64,000 nt of DNA from Phoronis australis (Eukaryota > Animalia > Phoronida): assembly GCA_002633005.1 (NCBI GenBank), contig NMRA01000329.1:395219-459218 (forward strand), given 5' to 3'. This document shows, one piece after another, positions 132 to 53,247 of the stretch. The position numbers were made by a program, and so were the translations under genes. The notes below the pieces were generated by a model. It was not told where the DNA came from. It saw only the letters and a list, made by a program, of their open reading frames with translations, and made no database searches. Numbering within the stretch: the stretch's first letter is position 1; each line of letters begins with the position of its first letter.

Positions 132-3100
132 CTGGTGATAACTTGAGATTCGTCAGTCGGTCTTTTCCGCATTTAAGTCTACAAATCTCGTGAGTATCAG
201 TGTCAGATCTTTTGAAAAACACAACCCTGTAATGTAGTAAAATCATGACATTATGAAAATCGTAACTAACAAATGACATAAATGAAATTCACCCGTGCTC
301 CTTCAATCCTGCAACATAAGAATGCATAGAAAATGTGACCAAGGGGATTACTAGACAAAATGTTTTGGCAATGATTTTATTTATTAGTTTCATTAAAACG
401 GCTACTTGTAGCTTCATTTGCTTAACGAATCCATTTTTTCCTAAAGATTCTGTAGGACCATAGAAAATGTTCAAAATAGCTGATCGGATTCAAATGACAA
501 GTTGTAATATCTTGCTTTATGTAGTGTTCTCCAAAACGCTGTTCAGATTTCTTTTTAAAATTATCGTTTTTTGCAAGAGGGGCTATCGAATGGACGTTTA
601 TGATTTTTATGGAAAATCTCAAAAGTTGTGTATAACAAAAACTAAACGATAATTCAGAAAATTGTTACCGCATTTTTTACGTTAAAATTTACAGCAAATG
701 AAATTTGGTCATTTATTGATGCCGTTTTGTACTATGAATTCCCCTTTCGAATGTTACAGAAGAGACATGATCACGTGACCTGATCAGTAGTTGTATGGTG
801 TTAAGTCAAACATCAAATTCTACAGTCTTTCTTTCCCGTATACTTTTACTCAAACTTTATGGTTAGAAATTTAGCTGAATGTACAGAGGTGTTCTTAAAT
901 TAACAAACATGAAATTTCACTCACCCTCCGTCTTTTAACCCAAGAACTACCAATGTGGCGCTTTCACTGACGTCGCAAGACGTTATTCGCAAGTTCTAAA
1001 GAAGACATAACACCGAAAAGCTTTTTTAAGAAAGACAATAGATCGCAGTTTCTTTAAGTTTTAAAGACAGGGAAAACCAGTGTCGTGTCAGGATATTTTA
1101 GATTTGTGGCGGACTGTTGCTGTCGTTCGCTTTTGAGAGTTGCTAGCTTTTTAATTAAGAGTAGTAAGCATCTCGGGTAATGTTACTGAAAAAGCGCCAG
1201 GACTAGTTCGCGTGTACCCGCAGTAGGAGCAGATTGTGTATCCCGGCACAGCGACCATCTCTGGTACCTGAGGCAGAAGTAGACTCTACCAAAGTAAATT
1301 ACAATCTACCGCAGGTATCGGGGACCCATTTTATCTACACACAGTTCATTGGCTCATGAAGGCAGTCGTTAATTCTGGATATGAAAAATTATCAAATTTT
1401 CGTCAGTTACAACGATTTCGCTTTTCTGAAAAATTGCAAAATCGCTCGTTTGCATTAACGTTCTTCCCACCCATAGCACTATACAGTTTCGTTCTGGCCA
1501 CCAGAAGCACGCAGTATTCGTGGAAACTTTAGGTTTCGGCGAATTTCTACTTGCCGTTTTTGCACTGTTTTGGAGTAAACTTCTGTCACAAACGTGCACA
1601 AAATCTTCAACATCGAAATTCATTCACCAGTTACGTCAGAGGGGTAACAATTAGATATCGCGTACCTTTGTGCAACTTTTCCATACGCACTGTCGTGAAA
1701 TGCTGTCGAAGAGACTTATAATCCCATCGCTGCCAGCGCTGCAGAAAATACCCGGCATGCCACACTCGACGGCCACCATTGATCTTAAGTCATCGTAGTG
1801 ACCCTATCAATGACACATATTATGTACAAGCAAATACACGTCATTGAAATGTATCCATCTCTCTGATTTGGGATCGCACGAGAAGAAGGCAGATCGTCAC
1901 TCAACAGAGCATTTCACATTTGAATTTTTCAGACGGTGGATCAGGTGTCCGATCTGCCTTCAGTATTACATTTAGCTAGAGAAGGAAGGTTGTATGTCTT
2001 TGGAGATGTGCGTGTCAATTTTCGTTTACTCTGTATACATTTCACAGCCATGTACGATTAAGACATTTTGGAACAAATTTTAAACATAAAGCGAATCATC
2101 AGTCACTTACAAGTGGAATCCCACAAGCAAAGTTTGAAAAAGGTGATACCACGCATTCTACCTATATGCCGTAGATTGTTAGAGACAATTACCTGTGTCA
2201 GTGGTATGGGGTCCAATGAGACGCCTTGAAGAGGCAAGCCTTCTGTAGACAGCTCTGCATGTAAGATGGTGTTCATTGTCGTTCCTATTATCAAAGTGTC
2301 CTTTTGGTGCATCAACATGCGCACGCCCCCTTCCGCCGTGTTGATGGTTAATGAACCTTGTGGGTCCATGTTTCGGTTCCACGTCCACGCATGAATCGCG
2401 CTGTCTCTTCCTCCGGACAGAAGTACTCCGCGTACGAGAGCCATGCAAAATACTGGTCCCTGCATTGTACACGTCCATTAGTAGTTTGTTGCTTGTACAA
2501 GCCAGGAAAGCATTAAACTCATCTCACGAAATTTTAAATGAAATGCATTTAACTTCCTCACTACGAGAAAAAAGTCTAAAAGGCACATAATTATAAAACG
2601 TTTTTTAACTCTGTTTAAAACAAGGGGTGCAGTCCATCAATCACCGCCATTCACACATTACAATGAACGTTAAAAATGAAGTGACCTACAGAATGACAAG
2701 TCGATAAGGTTTGAGTATGTGACGAAAGCAATCACTTTCTTTGATGGCACCTTTCAGAAATCCCTCTACCTTTCATAAGAAGTAAAATATGTTAAATTGA
2801 CAAAAAACAAACACCTTAACAAAGGCACTGTTTCCCTATAAAGTTGCTGGACACGAGCTTGGAGATTAAGGCAATTGTGTTTTTTCATTTTATGTTGTAT
2901 GGCGAAATAAATCTTCATCTTTGTTCCGGGTACAAAAATTTCCCTAAGTCACGTGTCCTTGCATTCTCAAACAATTTTCGCAACAAAATGATCCGGTGTC
3001 CCCAGAATAGTCTGAAGCATAGTCAATCAAATGTCATTGACCTCAACCGTGGCGTGTTCGTGGAAAATATACAAACTTGTCTAGCTTCAATTCCAAGCAA

Positions 3101-6100
3101 TTCGAATCCAATCAAAAATGATATGAAACATGTTCAGCGACTTTGAAGGTCTGTAATAGTGCCTGGGTTAGTGTAGGATGTGTTACTCGCGAATTTGGCG
3201 AGATCACGCAAGATCATCTATTTTTTCGCGAGTAGGCGCGCGCACTCATTGGCCGAGTGTAAATTGCAAAATCGCTATCAATGCATGAAGAGATTGGACA
3301 ACGAGGTTGGAGTTTTGAATTATGGGAGAAAACTGACTGTAAGTGAGTCACTATTTCCATTCCATAAACCAAGAATTTTCACTCTAAGTGTCTCGTGAGT
3401 GTCTATCGTTACGTAGACACGTAACTTATAAATAACTGTAAATAACCTGTAAGTAACTATTCACATTGCTTGTTATGGAACTGGTCCATATACGTGTGTT
3501 CTGTAACTTACGCATACTTACGTCATGTGCATGTTTCACCAGATTGCCGATTGTATTGCCTCCAAACGGCCAGATATATATAGTGCCGTTCGAGTCGCCC
3601 GTTACTAAATCGCCACGATCATTGTGCATCAGACAAGTTATAAACTTGGCTCGAAGGTGTTTCTGAAACAGTAGGGAATTTGTAAAGAATACAAGTAAAC
3701 AATACTGATAGCTCATTTATCCATCCCGTTACGCGTAGATTAGTATCGTCTGATTACTATCCGTGGAGTTGTCACTGTTCCCTTCTAATACAAGGCGGTC
3801 ATTATTATCCAACTTTTCCCTTGCGTTTTACCGGCAACTTAAACATTTGAATGGGAAAGAGAGAAGAAATTTTATTGTTTTGTAAAAAATCTTAGACGTA
3901 CCCCATAGTCGGCTTTCATATGCATTTCAATAGCGTTATTGTCAGGATATAGTTTCCACCAAACGATGTGTTCTTTGCCGATGGTGACAATGATATCCGG
4001 GTTCTTTGGATTGAACTCAGCGCTGCATATGGTTTCTGCTTCAAGCTGACAAACACGAAAAGAAGGGTTTGTTAATGAAAATGAATAAGAATGCTTTACA
4101 GAAAGCCTGCGGTTTTTTCACGTATCGGCCTGAGACACTAGCACAATACGAATCCATGTTCTCATAAACCCATTCATAAATTATTAACTACGTAACCTCA
4201 TTAACATATGAATATGTAAATCTTAACCGTCGTGGAAATGCAAATCGCAAACACTTTTATGTCTGGTCTACACGCCACCTGTTGGCCACACTGCAGTCAA
4301 TTCAAGATTTCTGTAGTGTTTTTATTTACGTTAACACGAAACTTGTTTAGTCGGTACAAGTATCATACGGGCACATACAGAGTCTCTCATGATGCCCTTT
4401 CAAACGCATACAGACACACAAGCCTTGCATAATAAATAACAGAAGTAAGAAATTAAAACTAGAATATTATTTTCAAAATATTCCAAAAGGGAGACTGCAC
4501 ATGGGTGGAACACAGTTGCACTAAATACCTGTAAAATGTCAATAGCATAGATGTCATATAAAAGAATAATACGTACCGCAGTTCGGGCTAGTTCCTTTCC
4601 AGAGGCCGTGTTCCAGACAGTCATCACGTGGTCATCCCCATTGTCTACTGCTATTACGCGATCCTGCCGTAATTAAAGAAAACGAAAATGCGAAAATAAA
4701 TGACAAAACAAATTAACATGAAATAGTTAAATAAAAACCTGTTTGAATTGGGTAGGTATATTGTATGGACCGCCACAACTGTTCTGGTAATTCCTGCCGT
4801 GTTCGCAATCGTAGGCACGTGGAAAGTACTTGACATCTAGGACGATGAATTGTGGAAAGCATCACGCCACTGCATGGGTTCACCGTAACCCTAGTAAGGA
4901 ACCACGACAATGCAGTGATTTGAAGAAAACTCTCTGCTTGTCGAAAATTTCACCCAGTAGATTTTTAGCTACATTACAATCTCCTATCGACCACAGAAGT
5001 TTCGATGTCTCGATTGGTGAACTCGTTTCAAAGGAAGGTGTGAATAACGTAAGTCACGTGACCTCCACCAAACTTTCAGAATATGGACGAAATGATTATA
5101 CGTAGAGGACCCTTTTAACTTTGTGGCATACATATTGTAGGCGTGCATGATATTGGAAATTAAACTTATCAAGTACAAAATTTTAAACAATTTCGTCACG
5201 GTGATCAACACGAGCAACGCAAAGTGATAGGTGCCCACCGTTTTGATCGCAAACGAAATAATGTAATTATAAGGGTTGCTCGATTTTTCAAACATTTCCA
5301 CTGTAGTCGGATCCATTCAAACCAAAATCAGCTGTGCTCTCCCCATTAGCAACACTTAGGTTAAATTTCATGTCGACACAAACTCGGTAGACATAAAAGC
5401 CGACGCAATGACAATTTGCCACAGAAGTCAGACCAGTCAAAATTCAACATCAGCTGCGTTTGCTTGAACAGAATCACACAGACATGTGTCAAATTTGATG
5501 AAAGTCCATCAAAGAACTATATAAATATAGAGCAGATACAAAGAAAACCCAAACATCCACAAAGGAGCACTACAGTTGCCAGAACCACTTAAAAACATCA
5601 ACACCAGTCTTGCTCTCCTCAACAAGAGCATATAGGCCAAATTTCATGAAGATACATCAAGGAACTAGATATAGAGGCAGATGACAAAAACGTAACTGGC
5701 ACTAGGGGGCGTCTCAGTGAATGGACCCGTCCTAAAATCAATGTCAGCTGTTTTCTATTCAATTGGGACACCTGCAAAATTTCAGAATGGTCCTTCGAAT
5801 GGTCACCCTAATGGGAGCAGAATACGCCGAAATCGTCCAAAATTGGGAAAGTGTTGTCAGCATCTCATAGTAAATCTATCGTAATTCCAAAAAATTCCCT
5901 TAAAGGGACATGATCAGCGAGAAAGTGATTTTATGAGATCATCGCAGTGGCAGCAGGTATAACGCTCTACTTGCGGATACACCCCACTCGACAACTGGCA
6001 TGATATTTTAAGCGTATTTTACTCGGACAAAGTCACCGATCTAGATTTCAGCGAATGTCTGGCAAACAACAGCAGGTATTGGCAATTTGTGATTAAAGCA

Positions 6101-9064
6101 CAAAAACCGAACGGATTATGTTGCTTTATAAGTCCAGTCTACGCTAATTACTTCAAGCGGTTTATCACATCAAACAACAATACCCAAAATGCACTTCTCC
6201 GCCATAAAACCGATAACGACTCCCTTTAAGGAAATCAGTAGAAACAGAGACAAACAATTAAAATTGACTCTAAAGCTAATAGCGCTAATTGGATTCCTCC
6301 AAAAATTGTTGTAATCCATCAAGGCCATAGAAAAAATTCCAAATTTCATGAAGGTTATGCAGGGAGCTTAGTAGAAGACGCAGCAGCGAAAGCCAGATGT
6401 CCTGGCGCCGGACACCCAGACAGAGATGAAGGTAATATACATCCACCCAAGTATTGTGGGCGCATAAAAATGATCTCAAATGTTATCACGGTAATAATAA
6501 ACACGTTTACACACAGCATGCAATGTTTATCAATTACCACTAACTATGCACACAAAGATGACGTACAACATGTGAAAATTGAAATAATGAAAGGAGTGAG
6601 TTTTGAAGATGTGTTATCAATGCATAGCATTTTCTTCATGCGACTGTTAATACACACTGACACGGCATGCAGTAGGCATTGTTAAAGCTACAGGAACAAA
6701 TTTATCGACTCTTCAGCAACTATTAAATTATAAAACCTAAAAATTCTAACTGTAGCACCAATAACATCTTAAACTAAATATATATATATTAACAATTTTG
6801 TTAGAACCTGAATGTTGCGGACAGAGTCATGGTCCATGTAGGTATTTTTGCCTGTTAGCTTCAAAGAACAAAGTAATGAAAGACATCAGAAAGGACATAT
6901 CAGTTTGTGTCACACTGTACGCTGTGAACTTTTTTATCAAACCTCGATTTCCTGCAGAAAACGTTCAAACAAATGAAAACAATAGATGAAACGTGACAAG
7001 TGCAATTTGCCCAAGTCTCAAACTCGTCAAAAGATATTTATCCTTATTATGCAAACATCGTAAAGGTAAACGGGATAATGTTACAAGGTTAAAAATCCCG
7101 TTGAATAAAGCTGGATACTTTGCTAAGGCGACAATATGGTAATATACTTTAGATGATATAATCTACATCACGCATGCCTTATGCAATAAAAGTCCATCAA
7201 TAACAGACATCGCTTAAGTGGCGCATAAGTCGAACATAAGTTCTTGTTTTTTATATTCTAGACTTATGTATTCTAATTTCCTGTTATCCTGTTTAGTACC
7301 TATATTTTATCATAGTCTAACCTTGTTATTGCCCGGGTTGCGCTTCCTCGGATGGGCGATGTCAGCATTCCGTGCTGCCATTATGGCGTTTTTTGCATGC
7401 CCATCTTGCAGAGTCTTAGTTAGTTTTATCTATTACGTCATAATAAATGACAATATTCGCAATCCTCCTCTTGTTTTACTCTGCAACATAGCTCGTGGCG
7501 TACCCCGGGCAAAATAGATTACGATAAATATATTTTCATTAGCCGATATGGAAAATATGGGTGGATTAGATTTCTTCACAATTAAATGTCCACGGTTAAC
7601 GTACGTAGATGGAAGTGAACGTTTACCTTTGTTCTTGCAAACCCTAAGCAGGAAACAGCCGTGTGAAATTTTCCCATGCCAAGAACGTGGACCGTCTGTA
7701 GGTTGTCAGCCCTCCAAATCCGTATGTGAGCCTGGAATGGTTCATGCATGCATTCATTCTGACAACGTAAGTTTAATATTGAAGAAAGACATTTGTTCAC
7801 ATCAACATATGGGGCACGTTAATTTGAACTAGGGATATATCAGACTAAGGCGAATTAGATTGTATTTTGTATTATTGAGTCGTCGTAACCTCTGTAAATT
7901 GGAGAAATATTACTTCGATATTTTTGTACAAAGACAAGTTATTACAGAATCTTACGTTCGAAGTGCCATCGTGACCAGTTTTGGTACTCTGTTGACCAGT
8001 GGCGATCGTTGTACCGTTGGAGTGAACCGAAATACTGTAATAAAAGTAATTTTCAGAATTGATTTTAAAGTAACTGAAATTTCAATCCATTTCTCTTCGT
8101 TGCTCAAGATAGGCTTACGCACAATAGTCCGAGATAAATACTTAAAAAGTGCACAGTTTAATCTTGTAAGTGAACAAAGAGCAAGGTTGATTCAATTTTA
8201 TTTAAGAATGTATACACCTCGACGTTGTAAATTCATGATTTCTTTTATTCAAACTTGGACAAAATAATTAATTTGAGCTGATCGCATCATTCTGTTGTGC
8301 ATATCGCCCGCAAAACCTTCATCGGCTATTACTATACCCATGGGTCGTGCATTCGTGAAATTAATAAGTACGAGCACGAACCAATGCTGTTGCACCCTGT
8401 TCTCTCGAACCACTAATGTTGGTTACCATTTGATATCGTCGGTGTGCTCGCGATAGTGCCGCTGGAAGTGTTGGTCTCTGTTGTATAGCACCGCCACGTG
8501 GCCTATGAAGTAGATAAGTTCACCGCTCGCCAACAAATGGATGTTGTTTCTGCAGTCGTGGCCGCGATAGCCGTACCTAGGAGATAATGCCCACTATTAC
8601 AGTAAGTAGCACTAACTTTGCCCGACTTGGTACGTTCTAACTCAGTTTGGAACTGGGTCACTGTGTATATCGTGACGTGCAAAAGACGACGATAAAGAGG
8701 AAAGTACTTTTTGTCCTTGTCGAAGTTGTGCGAATAAATGCCCTACATCATCAATGTGGCTCAAGGTAGACAGTCTTGCCACGCAAGGTCATTGTGATCA
8801 ACTCATCCCAAGCCCTAGTCACAGTCACGTGATAAGCCTGAGCTTCACACCCTTTAGTTGGGACAGGCATTGGTATGTAATAAATCAACTGGCCAACTTA
8901 CACCCAGTTCAGCTGTATCCTCTCTCGTGGCGGATCCGTCACTATGTTCTTAGTCTTGTATTCTGTTGGAATCCAGAACCTAAACGTTCGTCCACTTATT
9001 TCGGCCACTTGTACCTTTTCTGAATTTTCTCTCAAAGATTTCAAACTCGAGTTCAAACTTCCAT
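132..9064 (-). CDS. EML/EMAP HELP motif plus WD40 (TAPE domain) exons
   Basis: Spliced translation reads GRTFRFWIPTEY...DPPRERIQLNWV|YGYRGHDCRNNIHLLASGELIYFIGHVAVLYNRDQHFQRHYREHTDDIKC|ISVHSNGTTIATGQ...AHIRIW...DDHVMTVWN...IIVTIGKEHIVWW...LVTGDSNGTIYIW...HAHD|GPVFCM...LLSGGRD...TQ|GHYDDL. This matches the diagnostic EML HELP motif (WVYGYRGxDCRNN) and the WD repeats that follow it. Confidence 0.95.
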
Positions 9065-12000
9065 CTACGATAACAAAACGTGTACGTGTGTGAGCAGGAC
9101 CGTCTCGAATAGAATATACACCCAGAGAAACAGTACTGTCAGTGTGGCTTTTCTAATATAGCAACACCTAAGTATACAATTGTATATTGATTTGAAATTC
9201 AAAACAAATGACGCTTACTAGTTTAATTGTAACACTCTTTCTAAACAATGCACTTTTCGAAGCGAAGCGTCGATTTTTTAAATGAACCTGATTTCCAACA
9301 AAGAAACGAACTTTTGATTTAAACCGCTTCTTGATCGCTATAAAACTTGTTCCTTACTCGTACGAGAAGTGACTTCTGGAACAGATAATTCGATTCCTTG
9401 AGACCGCGCCTTGGCGCATTAACTGACACCTCGTGACATGAAGCCATCCTATAGAGTATGGACCTTCTCACGCAATGTCGACCTGTCAGTTATTTCAAAG
9501 CCCTGGTCCTTCAATATGACTACGTTAAAACCAATTTGAGACCAATTTCACAACATTAAGTGGTCTAAATTAAATTAAGTCGTTTTGTGATGGAATGCAG
9601 GGTTATTTAAGAAACTTTAAATTCAATTTTGAGTTTTAATTTTTGGTGTTCAGCCAGATATTCGCCGTCATTAGAATAAATGAGTGTAGTCTGAGAAACT
9701 TTGCATACAATTAACGCCAATACTACGATACAGGTTTGCAAGTTATGGGGCGAACTTTGAATGTCGTTTTGGTCCAGTTATATTCTAAATTAGATAAAGA
9801 AAAACATTTACTTAAAAACAGAATTTATGTACAATAATCAGCAATTCGAAAGCGTCCATTGTTGAGATACAAACGTTTTGTGTACTAAAGTTCCAAACAC
9901 AGTTACCTCCTTCACACAGTCTATTTTACCTGCTATTGAAGATTTGGAATCCGAGTCGGTGCTATCCATCTCCAACAAGGGGATTTCGTCCGGTTTCTTG
10001 CCTTCAACGTGTTAAACCGCATATTAAGTTGTGTTTGCACCTTACATTGCATTTTACATTTCTAGCCTTCGGCGTCTTAAACATTTAAGATTATGCTCTA
10101 TAATGCACTTCGTATTATAGTCACTTCTTTTTAAGGCAATGTTAAATTTGGTTTTGGATGTTTTGACACCGATATGAACCAGAGGGAAATCATGTACCGT
10201 AATCGTTCGGGTTAACGCCCATGCTCAGTTAACCGCCCATCCCTGACTTTAAGTGGATTTTCGATTTAACCGCCCACTGCTCAGTTAACCGCCCTCCCCC
10301 TATTTTTTGGATTCGCCAATTTAACCGCCCAGGGCGTTAACCCGAACGATTACGGTATTCATACATTTTCAATGATGGTAAATTCAGTTAAAAATTCAAA
10401 GTCTTCCTCGCGGTAATTTTCGTAGCAAAATATTAAGATCTTGTTTCAGTCTCGTTCGCATCCTACAAGGATTATAAGCGTCAAAAGAAGCCACGGAGCT
10501 CACTGCAGCCAAAGAATGCACTCCGACTTGGTCTTTTTATACCAACCTCTAACCTATTTACATTGGCACGACGTTTCGGTCGGTCATTTCCCCGACCAAG
10601 ATCTGTAACACCTGAGATGGTCGGAGAAGTGACCAACCGAAACGCCGTGCCATCGCAAATAAGCTAAATAGGCCAATGAGTTTTAGAAATGACGTTACCA
10701 AATCACCACCTCAAAGCGATTTTAGGAAGACAACTGTAGATCAAAGAGAACTATTTTGTATATTCTGACCTGTTTAAGGATCTCGATCAGTGCCGGATTA
10801 AGAACGTAGTAGAAGTGGCATATGCTAGTTGTCCCGCTCTTTTTGGGCCCCGCATTCGCAGCAGTTTTAGACGCACCTGGACTATAAACGTTTCTACTCC
10901 TGTGCTGACCTCAGATGGTGCGAAAGTTTGTGTTGGGGCGCCACCATTTTCAGTGTGCAGGGGCGGATCCAGTATTTTGAGATAGGGGGGCCATGGCAGA
11001 GTATTAGCCAGGATTTTGTCCGTCAGACATTCGCACCGCCCATCTGACCCAAATGTAAACTGGGAGAATTTTAGGGCGCATGGCCCCCTTGGCCACCCTC
11101 TAAATCCACCACTGGTGTGTGTAGGGTCAAGAATGCGAAGCCCCACCGAATAATCTATTATCAAAGAAAAGATGCCGTAGTGCTGACATAAGCGCGGGGC
11201 CCCTGATTAGCGGTATGTAGACACCTGAAATCGTCTAATTAGATGCATTACCCGGTAGAAACACTGCCTCATCATGTAGACGCCGTCTCAATTGTTTTCC
11301 TTCTCAAAAGTGAAAATTACACCCATTTTGCTTTTGGTTTGGGATAATCTTTATATTAGCATTTGAATAATGGCCCCAAGCTTCGACTTATTCTACGGGT
11401 CCCGCAATTGCTTAATACGGCACTGATCTTGATTTCAAATCACTAACGTGAAACAGCGACTGTTTTCTGAAGGTTCAGCAGGAGTGACGCATTCACAGGA
11501 TAAACGTACCTTTCCGTTGTTTCACAGAGTTCAGAAAGCCTGCCACATTCTTAGTTGTGCCAACGGATTTTCGGACCTCTGTGTAAAATATAGTTCAATA
11601 TGCAATCGTATGATTTGCTTGTACGGTGGAGGTTATAATGTTTATATCCATCAAATTGTTTTAAAACTAATATGACCATTTCGTGCACGATAACAGAAAT
11701 TGTAACAACATGAACAGAATGAACTGAGAGGTGACGTCAAAATATTACTGTAAACGATTCTCCGCCGGCGCACAGAAGCAAGCAAACGTTACAAAGGCAA
11801 ATTTTTGTCAGTTTTCGTGACCACACTTCACGTTTGATCAAAGATCCGTAATGGTTTTGTAGATTTCATAATTAAATTTTTGAAGCCTCAACGCATAAGA
11901 AATATATCTTATAGTGTATTTGAAAAGTGGGTTTTTGCAGTCACGTGACCGTTATAATTTGAAAAATGCGTCATCTTTGTTTTGAACATTCATTTCTGAA

Positions 12001-15000
12001 AACACGAACGTCATTTTGCCTTATTTCTGGAACATAGATAAACAAATTGTATTTGAGGACATAAATCAATAGTGCCAATGTGGTGTTTACACGAGACAAC
12101 CAGTTTTCAAAAAGTAACGATCACACTGTTACCTAATATTATTGATACATTCTTGTTGTTTTATTTACCTAAATATATTTTATCTTGTAAGAAATGTTTT
12201 TATCCACATTCTATGAATAGGTGGTTTTGAAACACTTGAGTTAAAAGTTTAATAAACAAAACAAAAACAACACACAGGCTGTTAAAACACAACATTCATT
12301 TCATATTGTGGAATGGCAAATATTGAATGATGAATTTACATAACACTCTCAAAATGTATCAAGTTAGAATAATTATGCAGTTCATCTTTTGAGTTAATTT
12401 CTTTGCATATTATGTCAGAGGCAGAACTAAAGAAATAAGAAGAATAGGACTCAAATTCAAACACAAATCCTAGCGAATGAATAACGCAGAAGAGATTTTA
12501 AACAACAGCAAAATGAATCAGAAGAGTAAAAAATAGTGCATGTGGACTGATGCACGTATCAGACGTGCGCATGCAACTCGGCCGAGCTACTTTTCATTTA
12601 TAAATGAATACATGTAGCTATATATACAAATTAAGTCCTAAACCGAGGAGCTAGAGACCCGACCCGAGATCTAGCAGTAGGGTCCAGTAGGATTCGAACT
12701 TACGACCTGCTGAAGAGTAGGCAGACACTAAACCCGTTAGGCAACACTGCCCATTCCAATGACAATATCAAAAGACAGTCTTTGAATTCACACAATCCCT
12801 CTTGCCCATGGGCATAGTTTTACACAAACGGACCCATGATTAAACAAACTCATGGAAGACCAACAATCCAGGAATAATTCTTCGTTTGCAAAGGTATTAG
12901 GCACGAGTTATTCCAGAACAAAATACTACTATAAACGCGGTTTTTGGGAAACAATGACTCCTTTGACAGTTTGACTCAGATAACTCTAAACCAACTTGCC
13001 CTCCGTGCAAACCTTACCCATGCGCCTATATTCGAAATAATGCGTTTTTATTCAAAGAAACTTTTTACACATTTTTACACATGGGCGCATGCGCATGCGC
13101 AAACGACTATCCCTCGCAATCTTGAACTGGATGATATTCATGCAGTTTTTCCACTCATAATACATTTCATTGAATAATAAGTGTTAAATACGAATCAAGT
13201 TCTATTATTTTGCAAGGGATGAGTCAAGTTTCACTCACGTGAAATTTGCTCCTACGTTTTACTCGCGTTTTACACATAAGCGCATTCGCAATGCGCCCAA
13301 ACATAACCGCAACTTAACATACGGGTGCATGTACGGCCTGAATACCCGTATATACAGCGTGAAAATCATGAAAAACTTGCTCCCAGTTTCAAAGCAATTA
13401 AATGGGAATATAAAGAAGGTAAGTAAGGTAACGTTTCTCATAGATTAAGCTACAGTGCGACTGAAGCGTCTAGGAACCGGCGTAGTAATCGACAAAAGCA
13501 ATAAAGAAGGAAATGAGTTGACACAATTCTCAATAGAGCATTACTGCACCAGCACTATGTTCTATACTACACTACAACGACTCACATGAATGGTGAAAAA
13601 TTTGATGTCAAAAATCGTTAAACACTTTCATTCAAATCACAGTTGCAGTTGTTTAATACAAATATTTCTCAATGACATTCTATAACTACACAACACTGCA
13701 AGTTTAGCAAATGAAGAAGCATAAAAACGACTCGAATTTTGCGTTTCTTTTGTAAGGTTGATATTTTCGATGTAATGACAATTTGATTTAATCGATGAAG
13801 TCTATAAACTGTAAAATTTGCGTGCGCTAGTGTTCTGCGTAAGACTGTGGTGTTCCATCGTCACCGAGAAAGTAGCCAGCGTCATCATTGGTTCAGCATT
13901 TGGCTATTAGCAGTTGTGGTATCATTCCATGCAATAACAACTTTGCGGCGAGAACAGGAAAATGTATTTCTGTGACACCCAGAATAGTAACTAAATCATG
14001 GCCACTCGGTACTTTATTCCTCTGTTTCTGTTTGACTGTCATGTCCATGCGGAACACCTCGGGTAATTTAGTAGCCTCGAAATCGTCCGAAGCACCTCGC
14101 GTATTTTCTATATGTTAAATATTCCCACGTATGTGAAGGTTATCTGCTCAAGTGAGATGACTTTCAATTTGGGGAACGATTGTCCGTGTGACTTAAGTTA
14201 GCACATGCGCAGGCCACTTTTACCTCCGAGAATGGCGAATCCCTTTCTTGTATGAAAGTCACATGATTTGCCGATTGAGTTAAGTCCGCATCTTGGCAGA
14301 TAATTATCACCTCTGAATGGGAAATGTCAGGCGACGAAAATACCCGATGTGTTCCGGATACCCCGAAATTTGAGGCTAGGAAGGTATTCCCAGATGCTCC
14401 GAATAGTTCACATTACTTTTATATATGTATTAAGAACGACATAATGTGTTTGGGAATCTAACGAATATAGTGCTGAGTGACACTAGGTGTCGAGGTCAAA
14501 GAAACACATAGCTGCACTACCATGTTTTCTAATGCAAGCAGTTCACAACACATACTGTACAAACAATATTCACCTTCGGAGCTCATGGTCACTTGCTCTT
14601 TACCAGATTTACCTGGAGAACCTAACAGAATAAATGTATTTGTGAAAAACAGAGAAATATCTAGACACAACCTATTCTTTAATGTAAGCTTCTGCTTGAG
14701 GCCTTGGATACAGGGGGCGCAGTCGTCGAGGTAATGGTGATTTGATTTTACCTGGAGATTTAGGACGAAGAGCTGAAAGTAGTGAATTGTACTTTATAAA
14801 GGGTACCCCTATCAAATACTGTAAAAGCATGGTTATATTAAAACGTGAAATTGACAAAATGGGTTTCGCGCTATTGAGGAGTATCGATATAAAAACAAGC
14901 TTCAAAACACACTTTCATAATCGTAGCCAACTCTCGTAGGCAACAAAGTTTTTATGTTCTGTGGCACGTGACATACACAAGTTCCGAGCTCAAACTTTTA

Positions 15001-18000
15001 ACAGAAGTCGACCAAGGTCTATCGTATAATTCTTGTGAACAATAATGAAGCCTGTCACCTTACCTTCGTTGATAACCTCAGCAGTCTCTTGGCGTTCTTC
15101 CTTCACAGAAGCCTGCGACAGAAGACCGTCTTCTATATACATATTATCCATCGTGTTTGAATGAATGCTGCTGGTGGACGGTACAGTCGACAGTGGTGGA
15201 ATAGGTGACGTCATCACAATAACACTCGGTGTGGCGGGAGTGGCGGGAGATTCCTGGTGGGGTGCAAGGGATAGTGAAGTTTGGTACTATCTGCAGTGCA
15301 TACTCCTCGCGTGTGAAACAAACATCACATAACAGAACAATGGGAGAGGACAAATGAAACTGGTCTCAACTTGATCCGTACTTGGATTTAAAGTGAGTTC
15401 TATTTTTGGGAAGAACTAGTCAGCCTTTCTTTATTGCCTGAGATCTTGCTTGGCGCATAAAATGACCAGTCTGGTCCAGTCAAATTGTTAAGCCTGATCT
15501 CAAGCGATGACGACCTGCCAGTCTTCCCAAGCACAATGTAAGGAAGAAGCGGAATCCAATTTTATAGCGGTATAGGGCCTCAATCAAATGTTAGTTTTTT
15601 GGGTTTACAGTACTATTAAATGTTAGAACATAAAATTCAATTTCCACCAACAGTGTTCACGAAGTGCTTCTATTGCATTTACAGATCCTCCGTTCGGTGT
15701 GATTTTGATGGGCTTATCTTCTTTTTCTGCAAAAACGAGACACTGAAACTAAACTTGCTCTAATAAGGAGTAACAGAGGTGCGAGATGAGCTAATTCTGG
15801 ACAGATAACACAAAGAAAGAAGAGGTTGTCTTCGACTATGTGCTCAAAGTCTAAGTAAGGCAAGAACACAGAGATACTGCAGCAATGAACATGACATGGC
15901 ATTCTACACACATCATTATGGCATCTATCTTCATTGTCCGAATAAACTAGAAATAACTCCAAGAGTGTAAGCCTTCATTTACACAGCCATTCGTTTGTGC
16001 GTTTGCGTACTCGCGCGCGCGTGTGTATATTTGCGTGTGTGCGAGCGTGCGAGCATGCGTGAGCGTGTGCGTGTGTGGGTACATATCATGGCAAGCCAAA
16101 AATGTGATGTAATTCCTGCCGGAAAAACGTTTTCCTAGTTTTTTTTTTTGAAATTGCAGTAAAAGCGTCGTAATGCTTAAGATCATGCACAAAATCTAAT
16201 TGCTTTTTTAATTCATGGTCTAGAAAAAATGGGTCTGTAGCCTTTTTATAATTTTCTCAATGCATACGCTTTAAGCAAACAAATTAAGGCAAACACGTAA
16301 CCTCTCGCAAGCGGAAGTTATGTTTCGAGTCTGTACAATTCCAAACCCAAGTAAGTACTTCGCCTGCTCTATAAACTCTACAGAATACAATGAGCACAAA
16401 TATCACGATGCCTGAGTATACCTGAGTTGATGAGATCGTTGAAGAGCTTTGTGATTGGTGAAGGCTCCCCGCTAACGAGGCGGCAACGCGTATTGTGTTC
16501 TTGTTGAATTTGAGCTTGCTCGAACCAGGTAAAGGTTTGTCTGGGTTATGACTTATCCATGACTCGAGGGCTTTTTCTAAGAAGCTCATTAGTTCGGGCC
16601 AGCTAAAATTAAAGTCAACCGATAATTAGCACAATTGAGTGGTGTTGATATCTTCGATAGATGTTTCGGTGGAAACTCTTATAAGATAGCGTAACTTTGG
16701 GTAAAATATATGAATGAGAACTCAAACTGATAGAGTTAATAATTACGCAACGGCAAAACTACAATATTTCTAGTCATTACACAACTCCCATCTATTGCTA
16801 TGTATCCTTGACAAACTTTGTGACGTGATAGACATAGAAGTGATTTCTGCTACATCAGTAATAACTATGTTCAAATTCGAGTGTTGAACGGGAACCGTAA
16901 TTATTCATTCCACCTCACTCACGTTGAAACTTACCTAACCATGCCATTGTTTTCGTCGTCACAGCGTCGTAAGACACTAGACAACAACGCCCCATAGATT
17001 GGTATCTGAGCTTCTGTGCACAAAGTAAGCAACTAAAACCAATTAATAAACTAAGCAATTAAATAAACCACGTCATTGTAATGAAGAAGTGTAATTAGCA
17101 AACAGTTGCATGGAGTTGAGTTTGATTACGATAACATCGTGAACACATGGTCATCCAATAACACTTTGTCATTAAAAGTTATATTCTTATTTTCATATTC
17201 TGGGATATCGCGTTTGTTGGTACTCTTCGGAAACACTATAGTTTTATGTCCAACAGACCATATTTCGTCACGTGCATTTGTAATATTAAACGACTCGTTA
17301 TAAGCAAAATCAGTTTTGCTGTACTGGAGAGCCCAGCTAATGTGTATTTAGATTTCATAGTAAATATATTAATAAATGTCTTGCGGATTAGGATAATATG
17401 AAACGTCATAATATCGGATCATGTCTTACTTCATTTTTCTGTATTTTTCCCATCTTAGCCTCATCACGCTGTTGACAGGTTGTTCGAAGTTCATTGAGAT
17501 CAAAATAATCGTCGCATTTTCCTATTTGCTCCTCCAGGCGTCGCAGCAAGTCAGCGTCTCGTTCTTCAACGCTCATTTGGGAAGAAGTCGTTTTCAGGTC
17601 GTTCCGTGCGTTTCTGGCCCGAACGCTATCCCTACCTGGGTTTGTTGAGAAATATTCGTAAGCTCATTTGGTCAGTTGTGATTGAATCAAAATTGTATTA
17701 ATCACAAATTAAACATATCTTGTGAATACAGAAATTGGAAACTATTGTTTGCTACAGTGCTTCCAGAACAATACCTCTTCCGAACTCTGAACCGTGGTTC
17801 GGAGGGAGCTTTTTAGGTTTTTCAGTGATCTTGCGCCCGGAAAACTGAAGATTTTCCTTTCGGGCAGAAATTAGTTAAGTGGTTCGAAAAATTCATTTTG
17901 ATTCAATGTTCGGAAATTGTAAAGTGAGTGTACTTCATTTACTAAGTCGGGTCGACTAGCTAAGATATCGATCAAGACATAGTTCCGTAGAGCAATTTTC

Positions 18001-21000
18001 TTGCGAAAGAATTGTCTCAAGATCCCGCAAAACCACGCGAGCCAATGAAAAGCCAGTATCTTCTTACCTAAACGGCAGCCACTTAAGTTATTGGTCGGTG
18101 AGGCTGGAATGCTGAATTACTGGATTGAATTAATAATTTAAGGGAAATATTTCTGTTTCCGCTCCACACGCGAAAATAGTAAATGGGGTCTAGTACGGAG
18201 CCCAGCTCTGATAGGTCCGTAAGCCGTATGTAGTCATCGAGAACCACAGATATCTTAGGCCGTTGACCCTACTGCTCACCCTTTACAGTGTCATTGCCTG
18301 TGCACCTCCTGAGCGTCCACAAGCGATGTATTGCTTATGACTTTTCTTGACGCTGCTACTTATAGCGTTTTAGCGCCCTTTTACTGTAACTTGCTTCTTC
18401 TGATTGTGACTTCTGACAGTTTTTGTTCTTTCTTCATTTATGAATAAATAATAAACTTAGTCTATAAATAAGTTTAAAAAACGAAAATTAATATGAAACT
18501 TCTATATTTAATTTTTTTGTATCTATATTGTAATACGTAATTACTGTGGTATCTTGATGAACGAGAGGAGGAACAGAAAAACGGGGAGGGTGATGCTCTC
18601 AACCCTACCCCCTCTGAAAAAACCTTCGGTACTTTGCTTATGAGTGCAGATATGTCGTTTGAAAATATAGTTGCTTTTCTCGTGATAAAGTACATAAGAG
18701 GTGAATTACCCGTCTTGTTATGTGCAGCAACTAGGACGTGATACAACTTTTCAAAGTTAACACCTTTGCTGTCTGTGAAGGTATTCACCATCAGCTGATA
18801 CACACGTGGTGGAAACTTGATGCCATTTTCCTACAAGAAATCGAGCATTGGACTGCGATTGCAAGACCTTTCAGTAAACCTTTTTTGTAATGAATCAGAG
18901 CAGAATTTCAATTTGACGCAAAGGAAGTCGAGAGTAGCACAAATAAGCCCTCATCATTAGTCATCTATTCTGGGAGCAAATTACGGCGGCTGGGAATATG
19001 TTTGAATCTCTTAGTGACTGTTTTTTCCATTTGACAAAAGGTTATTACGTTTTTGTGGCTTGCGGTAAATTTGCGCGATCCATCACCTGGACCTGTGATA
19101 CAACAGCCTCGACAGACCAATAAACTACAACAGTATAGTTCATTGATTGGAACTTGTCTACTTATAATCCATACTCACTCAAGAAAAGAACTCGAATCAA
19201 AGCTTATGGTCGCTAACACTCGTATAAAAACATTCTCATATTATTATCAGTCCGTTACTCCGTACCTGCAGCGCGTTAGTCAGATCTTTGTGCGTTATAC
19301 GCGAGTCAATGCTGCTGGCACCGCATCGTCGGAGCGCCATCTGAAGCGCCCGCAGGCGCTGCCTGCTCACTTCTTCCAAAGTATCCATTAAATAACCCAG
19401 TAAATCCGTTTCAAAATCCGGTTTCTTCTTTTCTTCCTCTTCCACTCGTTCTTCATTCTGATTCAAACCTTGAAGGGAAAATCGTGCGTTGTTACGAGAC
19501 CATAACGTATCGGCAACTAGTTCAGATTGGAGGTTTCCAGAAATCCAAATAAATAAAAAGGAAATGAACACTGATTTGGTTAAAATAAACAAAAATTGGG
19601 AATGAAATAAAATATAGTGCGTGTATTACGTAATCACTACTATGTTGTTGCCATAGACTGTAGGCATAGTTGTAATCTACATGTATAGTGTTGTATGCCT
19701 TCAGACTTGGCTCATGTGATCAATGCTCCTGGGACCTGTTCCACGAAAAGTGACGTCAGAAACTTGGTGTTGAGGTCTCCACAACTATTTCCGAAAACTT
19801 ATCTTAACTCACTGAAATGAGATTCAAAGCCGAGATGGGTTAATATTTACATTGCTAGTAATTGTAACCACTCATGAGCATAAGAAGACTGCATTTTGTT
19901 TATCTGTCAATGTTGAATTCTTAACCAAAGCGATTTGGGGCTTAAAAATATTGCCAGGCTACTATCCGGCAATTCAAGTCCTAGACAATGCCTGCCTACG
20001 CTATTTTCGAATCCGCAACTTGAGTGGTGGCCAACCCAATAAAATTTGAAGCGTTTTCTCGAGTTAATAGTTTTGATGTTATTGTTGGTAACGCAAATAG
20101 AATCCTATCATGGAATATTGTGAGACTAATTCCATGAGAGTAAAAGCTCAGGTTCGAATTTCGTTTTTAGCCAGCAAAACAGGGCGAAATGCAGCTTTAA
20201 GAACACGACTTCTGCACGACTACTTCACGACTTCTGAACGACATCTACACGTTTACTTTCAAACTTATCGATTAAGACATCACAGCTCTATACCTGGAGG
20301 CCCTCCGAGTGATCCCTCCGATAAGGCGTTCGTCCGCTTCCCTCTTGCTGACGACGGTGTACCATCACCAGCACTAAGACTTCCGCTGAGACTCGAGGAA
20401 AAGTTAGCAGCAACTTTTCCTACTTTCTGGACCAATTTAGAGCTAGGAAGACGTCGACTACTTGACGCGCTTGTTGGAGGACCCATTGCGTTTAATTCAA
20501 TCGTTTCAAGTTTCTGAAAATACGTTAACTGATATGATACCAAACTTCAGGATCATCTGCTAATTCATGACATCTTATTAATGCGTAAGAAGTTTTCTAA
20601 TTTCTTAGACATACGTGTTGCAAAAAAAAGATGCAGACAGATGCAGCCGTGTAGATCACAAGTTTGGTTGCAATTAACAATAACATCTTTTTTTGAAAAT
20701 GAAAAGCAAGCAATGGGATAAAGTGGCCGAAACGTCCAAGCAAGTACGTGCCGAAGGCCTACACATAGATATAGCGAGCCTGTCGTGAATTCATTTATAT
20801 TAAGACATGCCATCACCGTAGCTGTTTTGTGAGCCTATAGGTATACACTGACTTTAGTATTTTCCGTAACCAACATGATTTAGTGAACCCTTGGCGTTTG
20901 GCTGAGAGCCAACTGATGAAATGCTCTCATGTACGCCAACGATAGGTTGGGTCAGCAACAGATTGTAGACAACTCGTGTTCTTTAAAAAGCTGAGACATT

Positions 21001-21330
21001 TGATTGTACCTGGGGAAGAAAATCGTCTACCGTTAAATCGGCATTGGAATTGGATATCTGGCTTCCTGTCTCCTCGATTATGTCCACCTCTCCGTCCAAA
21101 AACAGGTACTGGCGAGATTTTTCGTGGAGTTGGTCTTCCTTCTTTTTCAACGCAAATGCTTTGGCATCAACGGAGTCCCTTCTCTGTTCCTCGACTGCTC
21201 GAATCTTCATTTCAAATCTAGCGTCCACCAGTGAGCTTTTGCGGGATTGTTCTAAGACTAAGCTCGTATTAGACGAGCGACGTGCAGACGTCGGAGATTG
21301 CCTTCGGAAAATGAGAACTCCGTCAGACAT
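132..21330 (-). CDS. Multi-exon EML/EMAP-family WD40 protein with an N-terminal EF-hand (C1orf87-like) region; 3' end lies outside the window
   Basis: Phase-compatible GT-AG exons in transcription order: 21330-21010, 20513-20294, 19516-19266, 18830-18710, 17635-17430, 17032-16935, 16602-16422, 15286-15064, 14772-14752, 14621-14574, 11578-11510, 10001-9930, 9064-8902, 8576-8427, 8034-7956, 7731-7627, 4663-4577, 4045-3902, 3662-3522, 2459-2193, 1803-1666, 995-925, 226-132. Total 3271 nt, about 1090 codons with no stop. In-frame TAA upstream of the ATG at 21330. The join between the two halves is inferred from phase compatibility. Confidence 0.7.
5300..5880. repeat. Highly diverged ~130-150 bp tandem repeat in an intron (TE-associated satellite-like sequence)
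   Basis: Recurring blocks such as aaaatcaac..cagc, (c/t)aaattt(c/g)atga and catcaa(a/g)gaacta..atataga. Similar degenerate units occur at about 44180-44520. Confidence 0.5.
5904..6225. mobile_element. TTAA-flanked MITE (Kolobok/piggyBac-like non-autonomous element)
   Basis: Ends read TTAA|AGGGAC ... CTCCCT|TTAA, which gives a short TIR and a TTAA TSD. Confidence 0.4.
10195..10357. mobile_element. MITE of Tc1/mariner (pogo/Tigger-like) type
   Basis: Perfect 26-bp inverted ends including the TA TSD: TACCGTAATCGTTCGGGTTAACGCCC / GGGCGTTAACCCGAACGATTACGGTA. Four internal TTAACCGCCC repeats. Confidence 0.9.
10564..10652. repeat. ~35-bp-arm palindrome resembling a Penelope-like element terminal (hammerhead-associated) motif
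   Basis: Arms tggcacgacgtttcggtcggtcatttccccgacca and tggtcggagaagtgaccaaccgaaacgccgtgcca. Contains GACGTTTCGG and CTGAGA...CCGAAACG. Confidence 0.55.
10958..11114. mobile_element. hAT5-like MITE (5-bp TSD)
   Basis: TIRs CAGGGGCGGATC / AATCCACCACTG and TSD GTGTG on both sides. The interior is homologous to the copy at 54459-54612. Confidence 0.8.
12600..12752 (-). mobile_element. tRNA-derived SINE (tRNA-like head at 12752-12680)
   Basis: Minus strand reads GGGCAGTGTTGCCTAACGGGTTTAG...GGTCGTAAGTTCGAATCCTACTGGACCC, with an A-box-like motif and a B-box (GTTCGAATC). The cloverleaf is imperfect and the sequence continues into a non-tRNA body. Confidence 0.6.
14574..21330 (-). CDS. N-terminal exons: EF-hand-like helical region (C1orf87-like) flanked by S/P-rich linkers
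   Basis: Ten phase-compatible exons. Translation includes RITHKDLTNALQ|ENGIKFPPRVYQLMVNTFTDSKGVNFEKLYHVLVAA, DLNELRTTCQQRDEAKMGKIQKNE|LLTLC and a near-canonical EF-hand loop split by an intron, RCDDENNGMVS|WPELMSFLEKA. The C1orf87 resemblance is from memory, not from a search. Confidence 0.8.
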
Positions 21331-53153: not shown

Positions 53154-53247
53154 GGCTGATCATGGTTAGTCGCTCTCCAGTGATTTGACACCAGTGCCTG
53201 ACTGACACATGTTTCTCTTTGCGAGAGGCGCACCGGAGTTGTACAGA

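What the first reader, a model, noticed from the sequence alone, without database searches (positions are those of the whole stretch)
132..21330. Apparent single gene fusing a C1orf87-like EF-hand region to an EML/EMAP microtubule-binding WD40 domain
Seen: the EF-hand exons (21330-14574) and the EML exons (9064-132) are on the same strand. They are bridged by small open exons with matching phase-1 junctions: 14621-14574, 11578-11510 (EVRKSVGTTKNVAGFLNSVKQRK) and 10001-9930 (GKKPDEIPLLEMDSTDSDSKSSIA). Together they give about 1090 uninterrupted codons. Known: vertebrate EML1-4 have an N-terminal trimerisation coiled coil before the TAPE domain, EML5/6 have three TAPE domains, and C1orf87 is an uncharacterised stand-alone gene enriched in ciliated cells. 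Inference: a Ca2+-sensor-like module replaces the usual EML N-terminus, which would link C1orf87-type proteins to microtubule or axoneme regulation. The C1orf87 assignment is by eye.
Basis: partly seen in the sequence, partly recalled or inferred. Interest (0 to 1): 0.8.

Follow-up and report, generated by a model that had tools for sequence, protein, structure and literature searches.

The report
EF-hand-tipped EML gene of invertebrates
This gene belongs to an old invertebrate branch of the EML tubulin-binding family in which a C1orf87-type EF-hand module stands where the usual trimer coil would be; it likely makes both a long joined protein and a short EF-hand-only one, and would tie a little-known cilia domain to tubulin handling.

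Summary
The exons are real and in frame (993-1063 codons, depending on the bridge; the gene runs off the window). The join is not peculiar to this genome: 12 of 49 hits to one EML exon are single proteins that carry both halves, from molluscs, a brachiopod, a nemertean, amphioxus and echinoderms. Databases name them only 'EML-like' or 'uncharacterized'. In them the second N-terminal lobe matches Pfam DUF5580_M (recalled as the C1orf87 family), and the C-terminal part folds like the EML1 TAPE domain (Z 44). (2) The EF loops are degenerate, so calcium sensing is doubtful. (3) TAPE binds soluble tubulin, not the microtubule wall. (4) C1orf87 likeness is domain-level; orthology is untested. Verdict: an apparently undescribed EML subfamily, analogous to fly DCX-EMAP.

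The parts
21010..21330 (-). Exon 1 (ATG at 21330; aa 1-107), poorly conserved N-terminal extension
   Evidence: joint 21010>20513 in reads; no homologue match to aa 1-180 better than E 0.23
20294..20513 (-). Exon 2 (aa 108-180), Ser/Gly-rich
   Evidence: joints on both sides in reads
19266..19468 (-). Exon 3 (aa 181-248), first half of helical lobe 1 (conserved SRQRLRA motif)
   Evidence: joint 20294>19468
18710..18830 (-). Exon 4 (aa 249-288), second half of lobe 1 (degenerate EF-hand pair, predicted)
17430..17635 (-). Exon 5 (aa 289-357), start of lobe 2, loop EF3 degenerate
   Evidence: DUF5580_M 2-43/95 at E 0.19 alone
16935..17032 (-). Exon 6 (aa 358-389), lobe 2, loop EF4 (near-canonical, Glu at position 3)
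   Evidence: joint 16935>16602
16422..16602 (-). Exon 7 (aa 390-450), end of lobe 2 (SWPE motif) and start of linker
   Evidence: joints on both sides in reads
15064..15253 (-). Exon 8 (aa 451-513), low-complexity linker; last exon shared by short and long forms
   Evidence: joint 16422>15253, 8 reads X1 and 3 reads X2
14672..14772 (-). Candidate terminal coding exon of the short form, ends in TAG (546 aa product); an inner donor after 14752 would give a 21-nt bridge exon
   Evidence: covered in X1 but hardly in X2; splice into it not seen
14574..14621 (-). Candidate bridge exon (48 nt; or 9 nt with the donor after 14613); read-through gives another short-form end (567 aa)
   Evidence: not needed for the join
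12500..14573 (-). Likely 3' UTR of the short EF-hand-only transcript, inside the intron of the long form; end approximate
   Evidence: stranded depth mean 2.2 (X1) and 3.4 (X2) over 12447-14615, none on the other strand there, zero at 11724-11964
11510..11578 (-). Bridge exon with a conserved basic linker motif (GFLNSVK); an alternative acceptor at 11539 keeps the motif
   Evidence: motif in Lingula, Lineus, Saccostrea, Branchiostoma, Owenia, weaker in Apostichopus; strongest of 358 GT donors in 14573-9065; low stranded depth
9930..10001 (-). Bridge exon (72 nt, weak acceptor); holds the in-frame ATG at 9969
   Evidence: about 113 read bases in X1
8902..9064 (-). EML exon: start of TAPE (atypical blade part, HELP start)
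   Evidence: joint 8902>8576; homologue alignment
8427..8576 (-). HELP motif exon
   Evidence: PF03451 45.4 bits, cut-off 27
7956..8034 (-). First-propeller exon
   Evidence: joint 7956>7731
7627..7731 (-). First-propeller exon
   Evidence: PF23409 41-74, E 1.2e-9
4577..4663 (-). First-propeller exon
   Evidence: PF23409 80-105, E 1e-3
3902..4045 (-). First-propeller exon
   Evidence: PF23409 109-142, E 1e-8
3522..3662 (-). First-propeller exon
   Evidence: PF23409 153-198, E 7.5e-13
2193..2459 (-). End of first propeller; query of the homologue search
   Evidence: PF23409 199-266, E 8.6e-10
1666..1803 (-). Start of second propeller
   Evidence: homologue alignment
925..995 (-). Second-propeller exon
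   Evidence: AG/GT edges, open frame, aligns to homologues
132..226 (-). Last exon in the window; about 150-195 more residues expected beyond position 1

Best explanation
This locus encodes an EF-hand-type (DUF5580-like) module and an EML TAPE domain that are joined in one protein in relatives from five animal phyla, and it likely yields both that long protein and, by ending early near 12.5 kb, a short EF-hand-only one; the module likely docks the protein on a ciliary microtubule structure, where TAPE would hold soluble tubulin. Shown: exon structure, homologues carrying both halves, the Pfam match of lobe 2 in homologues, degenerate EF loops, stranded RNA over 14.6-12.5 kb. Predicted: two helix-plus-EF-pair lobes, a disordered linker and a complete TAPE fold (model of the Lineus homologue). 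Inferred: that the long splice occurs in this species (about 0.85-0.9); that the 14.6-12.5 kb RNA is the 3' UTR of a short isoform made by intronic polyadenylation (about 0.75); that the lobes are a mostly calcium-independent docking module taking over the targeting role of the EML1-4 N-terminus, helped by basic linker patches that would bind tubulin tails (about 0.45); that the site of action is the cilium (about 0.45, by analogy with human C1orf87 and fly DCX-EMAP).
For: phmmer with one EML exon gave 49 hits; 12 of 49 also match the spliced N core, aa 181-410, at 35-52% identity. Names (20 of 49 looked up): Lingula, Lineus, Saccostrea, Mactra, Patella, Lottia, Pomacea, Physella, Branchiostoma, Acanthaster, Lytechinus, Apostichopus; most have RefSeq XP_ records. 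A profile of 12 homologue N cores scores the window's spliced protein at 270 bits. Separate trees of the two halves (13 rows) both group molluscs (96/96, 100/99) and echinoderms (94/91, 100/99) and put the window beside Lingula/Lineus. DUF5580_M is listed for 8 of the 12, above its cut-off of 24 bits in 7 (27.8-43.1), and outscores generic EF-hand models. The motif of bridge exon 11578-11510 lies 80-144 residues before HELP in six homologues and 88 in the window. AlphaFold2 model of the Lineus protein: N core mostly pLDDT 76-91 with helix-strand-helix pairs, linker 233-428 under 50; best fold match EML1 TAPE 4ci8, Z 44.2, rmsd 2.7, 622 aligned, next 35.5. RNA. Human C1orf87 scores 0.48-1.0 in the axoneme columns of five tissues against at most 0.27 elsewhere (PMC12772120, supplement row).
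Against: No read joint across the bridge was listed (3 reads needed, about 18% of each run read). In X2 the UTR-like stretch has depth 3.4 while the bin holding EML exon 9064-8902 has 0, so the long form is rare or absent in that sample. Homologues are gene models, and fused models can be annotation errors (12 independent errors of the same kind are unlikely). Two orthologue-type proteins of 700+ aa lack the N core (Owenia P0003, marked partial; Elysia P0017). Aa 1-180 and nearly all of the linker are not conserved. The motif scan is partly circular: I picked the six motifs by eye. The basic patches (+6 to +9 per 25 residues in 15 of 16 rows) had no control. No canonical poly(A) hexamer lies at 12.45-12.7 kb, only variants AATGAA 12598 and TATAAA 12602. 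No expression or localisation data exist for this subfamily; the ciliary role is analogy only.
Confidence: 0.68

Rival explanations
1. In this species the ancestral joined gene has split in use: an EF-hand-only gene ends near 12.5 kb and the EML half is transcribed from its own promoter at 12.4-11.6 kb or near 10 kb (in-frame ATG at 9969).
For: Continuous UTR-like RNA through the 'intron' and zero depth at 11724-11964; X2 expresses the N half without exon 9064-8902; ATG 9969 opens 493+ codons; no bridge joint listed.
Against: Exon 11578-11510 lies upstream of that ATG, has RNA depth, keeps a conserved coding motif and has an acceptor, so it needs an upstream exon. X2 has about 99 read bases on the 3' end of exon 15253-15064, only 7 in 14616-14856 and 36 on exon 11578-11510, which fits, but does not prove, one bridging read. 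All 12 homologues with an N core are joined.
Confidence: 0.12
2. The N core is a true calcium switch: Ca2+ binding at loop EF4 changes docking or tubulin release, coupling ciliary calcium to microtubule dynamics.
For: EF4 keeps Asn/Asp at position 5 in 15 of 15 rows, Glu/Asp at 12 in 12 of 15 and Asp at 1 in 9 of 15; weak EF-hand_7 hits in four homologues; Atlas neighbours are EF-hand clusters at 0.92-0.93.
Against: Position 3 of EF4 is Glu or Gly in 13 of 15 rows; EF3 and both loops of lobe 1 are degenerate; the PROSITE pattern (typed from recall) is met in the N core of 1 of 16 rows and not in the window protein; EF-hand_7 scores are below cut-off in three of the four.
Confidence: 0.25
3. 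The N core is chiefly an oligomerisation module that replaces the trimer coil of EML1-4 in a cytoplasmic or neuronal microtubule-associated protein, with no special tie to cilia.
For: Same position and same disordered, partly basic linker as in EML1-4 (PMC4761370 passages); EF-hand pairs often pack as dimers (established knowledge).
Against: DUF5580-type clusters include ciliates (a lead only), human C1orf87 is axonemal, and the best N-core sequence hit among solved structures is an EF-hand chain of the sea-urchin sperm doublet (8snb_3J, E 7.5e-11, for the entry title).
Confidence: 0.2

Closest known systems
EML1-4 (human; EML1 TAPE structure 4CI8)
   Same: One HELP motif and one TAPE domain at the C-terminus behind a disordered Ser/Thr/basic linker (PMC4761370 passages).
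   Different: N-terminus is a two-lobed EF-hand-type domain, not a trimer coil; about 35% identity to EML1 over TAPE; no protein named as vertebrate EML1-4 was among the 20 of 49 hits whose names were looked up.
Drosophila DCX-EMAP (CG42247)
   Same: An invertebrate EML whose coiled coil is replaced by another N-terminal module; it acts in sensory cilia and also has a truncated form (PMC2892299, passages). The best functional analogy.
   Different: Its module is doublecortin, a known microtubule-binding domain; here it is a DUF5580-type EF-hand pair of unknown partner, found in lophotrochozoans and invertebrate deuterostomes.
C1orf87 / mouse Gm12695 (Pfam DUF5580 N, M, C; the DUF5580 = C1orf87 link is recalled, not from a call)
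   Same: Lobe 2 matches DUF5580_M over 2-94 of 95 positions in homologues; C1orf87 is described as an anonymous EF-hand protein (PMC5264158, passage) and is axonemal in human tissue.
   Different: Stand-alone, with three DUF5580 domains; here there are two lobes, DUF5580 N hits only weakly (E 0.062, on the same lobe) and DUF5580_C was not listed. Orthology untested.
RefSeq/GenBank 'EML-like' or 'uncharacterized' models, e.g. XP_013415115 (Lingula), XP_064644158 (Lineus), XP_022099755 (Acanthaster), XP_035670425 (Branchiostoma)
   Same: Same architecture: these are the orthologue-type members.
   Different: Their names do not mention the N-terminal module (one Lottia record is called EF-hand domain-containing); no paper on them was found (six ids).

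Membership tests
EML/EMAP family | HELP motif N-terminal to WD repeats | tested here: met
   PF03451 45.4 bits in exon 8576-8427; five further exons hit PF23409 in order
EML/EMAP family | Complete TAPE fold (two propellers, atypical blade) | tested here: inconclusive
   Met in the Lineus homologue model (4ci8, Z 44.2); the window holds only about two thirds of it
EML1-4 class | N-terminal trimerisation coiled coil | tested here: inconclusive
   The conserved N core is predicted as two EF-hand-type lobes; no coiled-coil predictor was run on the unconserved aa 1-180
EML5/6 class | Three HELP-WD units, no N-terminal domain | tested here: not met
   Homologues have one HELP and one pair of propellers behind a 250-900 aa N-terminal part
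C1orf87 (DUF5580) family | DUF5580_M domain above cut-off | tested here: met
   7 of 12 joined homologues above 24 bits, 1 below, 4 unknown because the list was cut at 25 families. The window's own domain is split over exons; exon 5 alone gives E 0.19
C1orf87 (DUF5580) family | DUF5580 N and C domains as separate domains | tested here: not met
   In three homologues whose lists were complete, N hit once at E 0.062 on the M lobe and C not at all
C1orf87 (DUF5580) family | Orthology to vertebrate C1orf87 (reciprocal hits, tree) | not testable with these tools
   No C1orf87 sequence was returned by any search
Canonical EF-hand Ca2+ sensor | 12-residue loops with ligands at 1, 3, 5, 12, in pairs | tested here: not met
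   No full pattern in the window protein; one near-canonical loop (EF4)
Ciliary microtubule-associated protein | Expression in ciliated cells and localisation to axoneme or basal body | not testable with these tools
   Tissue of runs X1-X3 not given; no paper found

The most novel reading that the evidence does not exclude
The last common ancestor of protostomes and deuterostomes had a ciliary gene that made a DUF5580-EML protein and, by early polyadenylation, a short DUF5580-only protein; vertebrates lost the TAPE exons and kept the short form as C1orf87, so human C1orf87 should still partner a TAPE protein (EML family) to deliver or hold tubulin in the axoneme.
Probability: 0.12. Interest if true: 0.8.

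Novelty: new variant of a known kind. Interest (0 to 1): 0.48.

Why it matters
EML proteins are usually sorted into two classes plus the fly exception DCX-EMAP. This is a further architecture, kept across five phyla and hidden under automatic 'EML-like' names. It is a domain-fusion clue that DUF5580-type EF-hand lobes, otherwise of unknown function and axonemal in human C1orf87, work next to tubulin-binding propellers, which gives a direct test (C1orf87-EML or C1orf87-tubulin binding). The short isoform suggests a simple switch between a tubulin-carrying and a docking-only form. It is not a new kind of system, and sequence records of the joined protein already exist.

Tried and rejected
Word-seeded homologue searches with single exons found nothing. 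The search for shorter, stand-alone N-half proteins with alignment A1 gave 2 hits among 7996 scored, a 114-aa fragment and an unrelated WD40 protein: weak, no evidence on split forms or C1orf87. The look-up of sequencing runs: no RNA holder listed; raw-read runs of the same species label were laid instead. X3 and X4 had next to no depth on the gene and carry no weight. No whole genome is held, so the 3' end of the gene and a possible separate C1orf87 gene could not be sought. Complex prediction of two N-core copies gave no answer. The whole-chain fold searches were filled by propellers; the N core was not folded and searched alone, so its closest solved fold is open. Lobe 1 against lobe 2 profile comparison was weak (probability 14%, E 4.5e-4): an internal duplication is likely but not shown. 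A candidate exon starting at 1374 was rejected (stops) in favour of 995-925. The 'via 10876' exon is disfavoured: it lies at the edge of a dispersed repeat covered on both strands, although its donor scores 8.7. No Rfam family in 9000-15100. NCBIfam gave nothing near cut-off. No earlier findings. Paper searches that found no description of this subfamily; the library lacks most subscription papers, and the supplements of the DUF5580 preprint (10.64898/2026.09.11.750891) could not be seen.
Full report
Observation. The minus strand of 21330-132 holds eight N-terminal exons, two to four small bridge exons and eleven EML exons, all with AG/GT edges. Every junction between 15064 and 9064 is phase 1, so matching phase says little. 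The gene leaves the window about 150-195 residues before its end. Pfam places HELP in exon 8576-8427 (45.4 bits) and five further exons in order along the first EML propeller (16 exon pieces scanned).

Homologues. Two word-seeded searches were blank. phmmer with exon 2459-2193 over 1.84 billion representatives gave 49 hits. Twelve of the 49 also match the spliced N core (aa 181-410) at 35-52% identity: P0004, 5, 6, 7, 10, 11, 13, 19, 22, 23, 24, 28. The other 37 are two long orthologue-type proteins without the core (Owenia, marked partial; Elysia), shorter pieces, two multi-TAPE EMLs and unrelated WD40 proteins. Names were looked up for 20 of 49. The twelve come from Lingula, Lineus, six mollusc genera, Branchiostoma and three echinoderms, that is five phyla (Lineus, the rest by established knowledge), and are named 'EML-like 1-4', 'uncharacterized' or 'hypothetical'. 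Trees of the two halves, 13 rows each (Lottia, Apostichopus and Owenia left out for short cores), both recover molluscs and echinoderms and place the window beside Lingula and Lineus; no formal congruence test was run. The join therefore likely predates the protostome-deuterostome split. No vertebrate or cnidarian member was among the named hits and the one arthropod hit is a multi-TAPE EML, but an 89-residue query cannot show absence.

The bridge. Exon 11578-11510 carries a motif also seen 80-144 residues before HELP in six homologues; a score built from those six, picked by eye and hence partly circular, ranks it first of 40,825 six-frame windows (14.3, next 11.0). Its donor is the strongest of 358 GT sites in 14573-9065. 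Exon 10001-9930 has a weak acceptor but RNA depth in X1. The 14.6-14.8 kb exons are optional.

RNA. Four runs were laid on 2001-22000 and three on 8350-15550; about 18% of each raw run was read, and only X1 and X2 express the gene. Six in-gene joints were seen; five rows were not shown. No bridge joint was listed, nor the joints next to the bridge, so depth is too low to decide. The clear new result is stranded depth (mean 2.2 in X1, 3.4 in X2; none on the other strand there) from 14.6 to about 12.5 kb, inside the proposed intron, with zero at 11724-11964. Other introns are mostly empty apart from repeats, so this reads as a 2-kb 3' UTR of a short transcript of 537-574 codons whose exact end is unresolved. 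X1 also covers exons 11578-11510, 10001-9930 and 9064-8902 (about 2, 1.6 and 5 deep if confined to the exons); X2 has none on 9064-8902. A short form thus likely coexists with, and in X2 outweighs, the long one.

The N core. Of 17 proteins scanned, DUF5580_M is listed for 8 of the 12 joined ones, above cut-off in 7; for 4 the list was cut. It covers lobe 2 only and outscores generic EF-hand models; DUF5580 N hits once weakly and C was not listed. That DUF5580 is the C1orf87 family is recalled; the preprint 10.64898/2026.09.11.750891 (passage) says only that mouse DUF5580_C has an EF-hand fold. An AlphaFold2 model of the Lineus protein (17 sequences, mean pLDDT 72) shows two lobes of a helix plus helix-loop-helix pair, a disordered linker (233-428) and a TAPE domain matching EML1 4ci8 (Z 44.2, rmsd 2.7, 622 aligned). 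The loops are degenerate: no PROSITE-type loop in the window protein, one in 1 of 16 rows; only EF4 is near-canonical. The conserved (I/V/C)-x-W-P end of EF4 and the SRQRLRA and GRDS motifs look more like a docking surface (inference). The best N-core hit among solved structures is chain 8snb_3J of the sea-urchin sperm doublet (E 7.5e-11), not identified further.

Mechanism. In EML1-4 the trimer coil and basic region bind the microtubule and TAPE binds soluble tubulin (PMC4761370, passages); EML4's basic N-terminal domain binds tubulin tails (10.1101/466979, abstract). Fly DCX-EMAP swaps the coil for doublecortin domains and works in sensory cilia (PMC2892299, passages; PMC10471123, search listing only). 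Human C1orf87 is an anonymous EF-hand protein (PMC5264158, passage) found in ciliated cells and scored axonemal (10.1101/2025.03.18.643967 passage; PMC12772120 supplement rows; 10.64898/2026.03.14.711768 passage). I therefore infer that the EF-hand-type lobes dock the long protein on a ciliary microtubule structure, basic linker patches touch tubulin tails and TAPE holds tubulin dimers, while the short form fills the docking site without TAPE. Each of these steps is inferred; calcium control through EF4 is a rival at about 0.25.

Novelty. The joined protein already exists as gene models, but eight paper searches found no description of the architecture. It is a new variant of a known family. 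The bolder reading, that C1orf87 is the surviving short form of this gene, is not excluded, but only one of its three Pfam domains matches and no C1orf87 sequence could be compared. Interest 0.48.

Noticed in passing
window 10195-10357: 163-bp element with perfect 26-bp terminal inverted repeats; reads on both strands run off at exactly these ends: a MITE-like dispersed repeat in the intron between bridge exons.
   Followed up: partly
window 10550-10666, about 10920-11110, 7240-7530, 4247-4290, 20080-20180: Further intronic stretches with deep two-strand read cover and loose ends, i.e. dispersed repeats; 10550-10666 is an 82% inverted repeat.
   Followed up: no
window 14773-15063: Four X1 reads (2 starts) lie at 14797-14806, upstream of the 14772 acceptor: a retained intron or another acceptor in the short form.
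   Followed up: partly
window 21344-22000: Stranded RNA depth 1.2-2.2 upstream of the ATG suggests a 5' UTR of several hundred bases.
   Followed up: no
window 52071-53159 (-): 363-codon open frame matching Glyco_transf_49 (213.9 bits), a glycosyltransferase of the dystroglycan-modifying type.
   Followed up: partly
window 40473-40820 (+): Exon matching Pfam Paf1, positions 314-368 (37.5 bits).
   Followed up: partly
window from 50132, and 24015: Assembly gap of about 526 N and one single N.
   Followed up: no
P0074/P0076 (Lytechinus pictus), P0053/P0054 (Patella), P0061 (Pomacea): Annotated shorter isoforms of homologues: C-terminally truncated in Lytechinus, EML-only in the molluscs; isoform variety may be general in this subfamily.
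   Followed up: no
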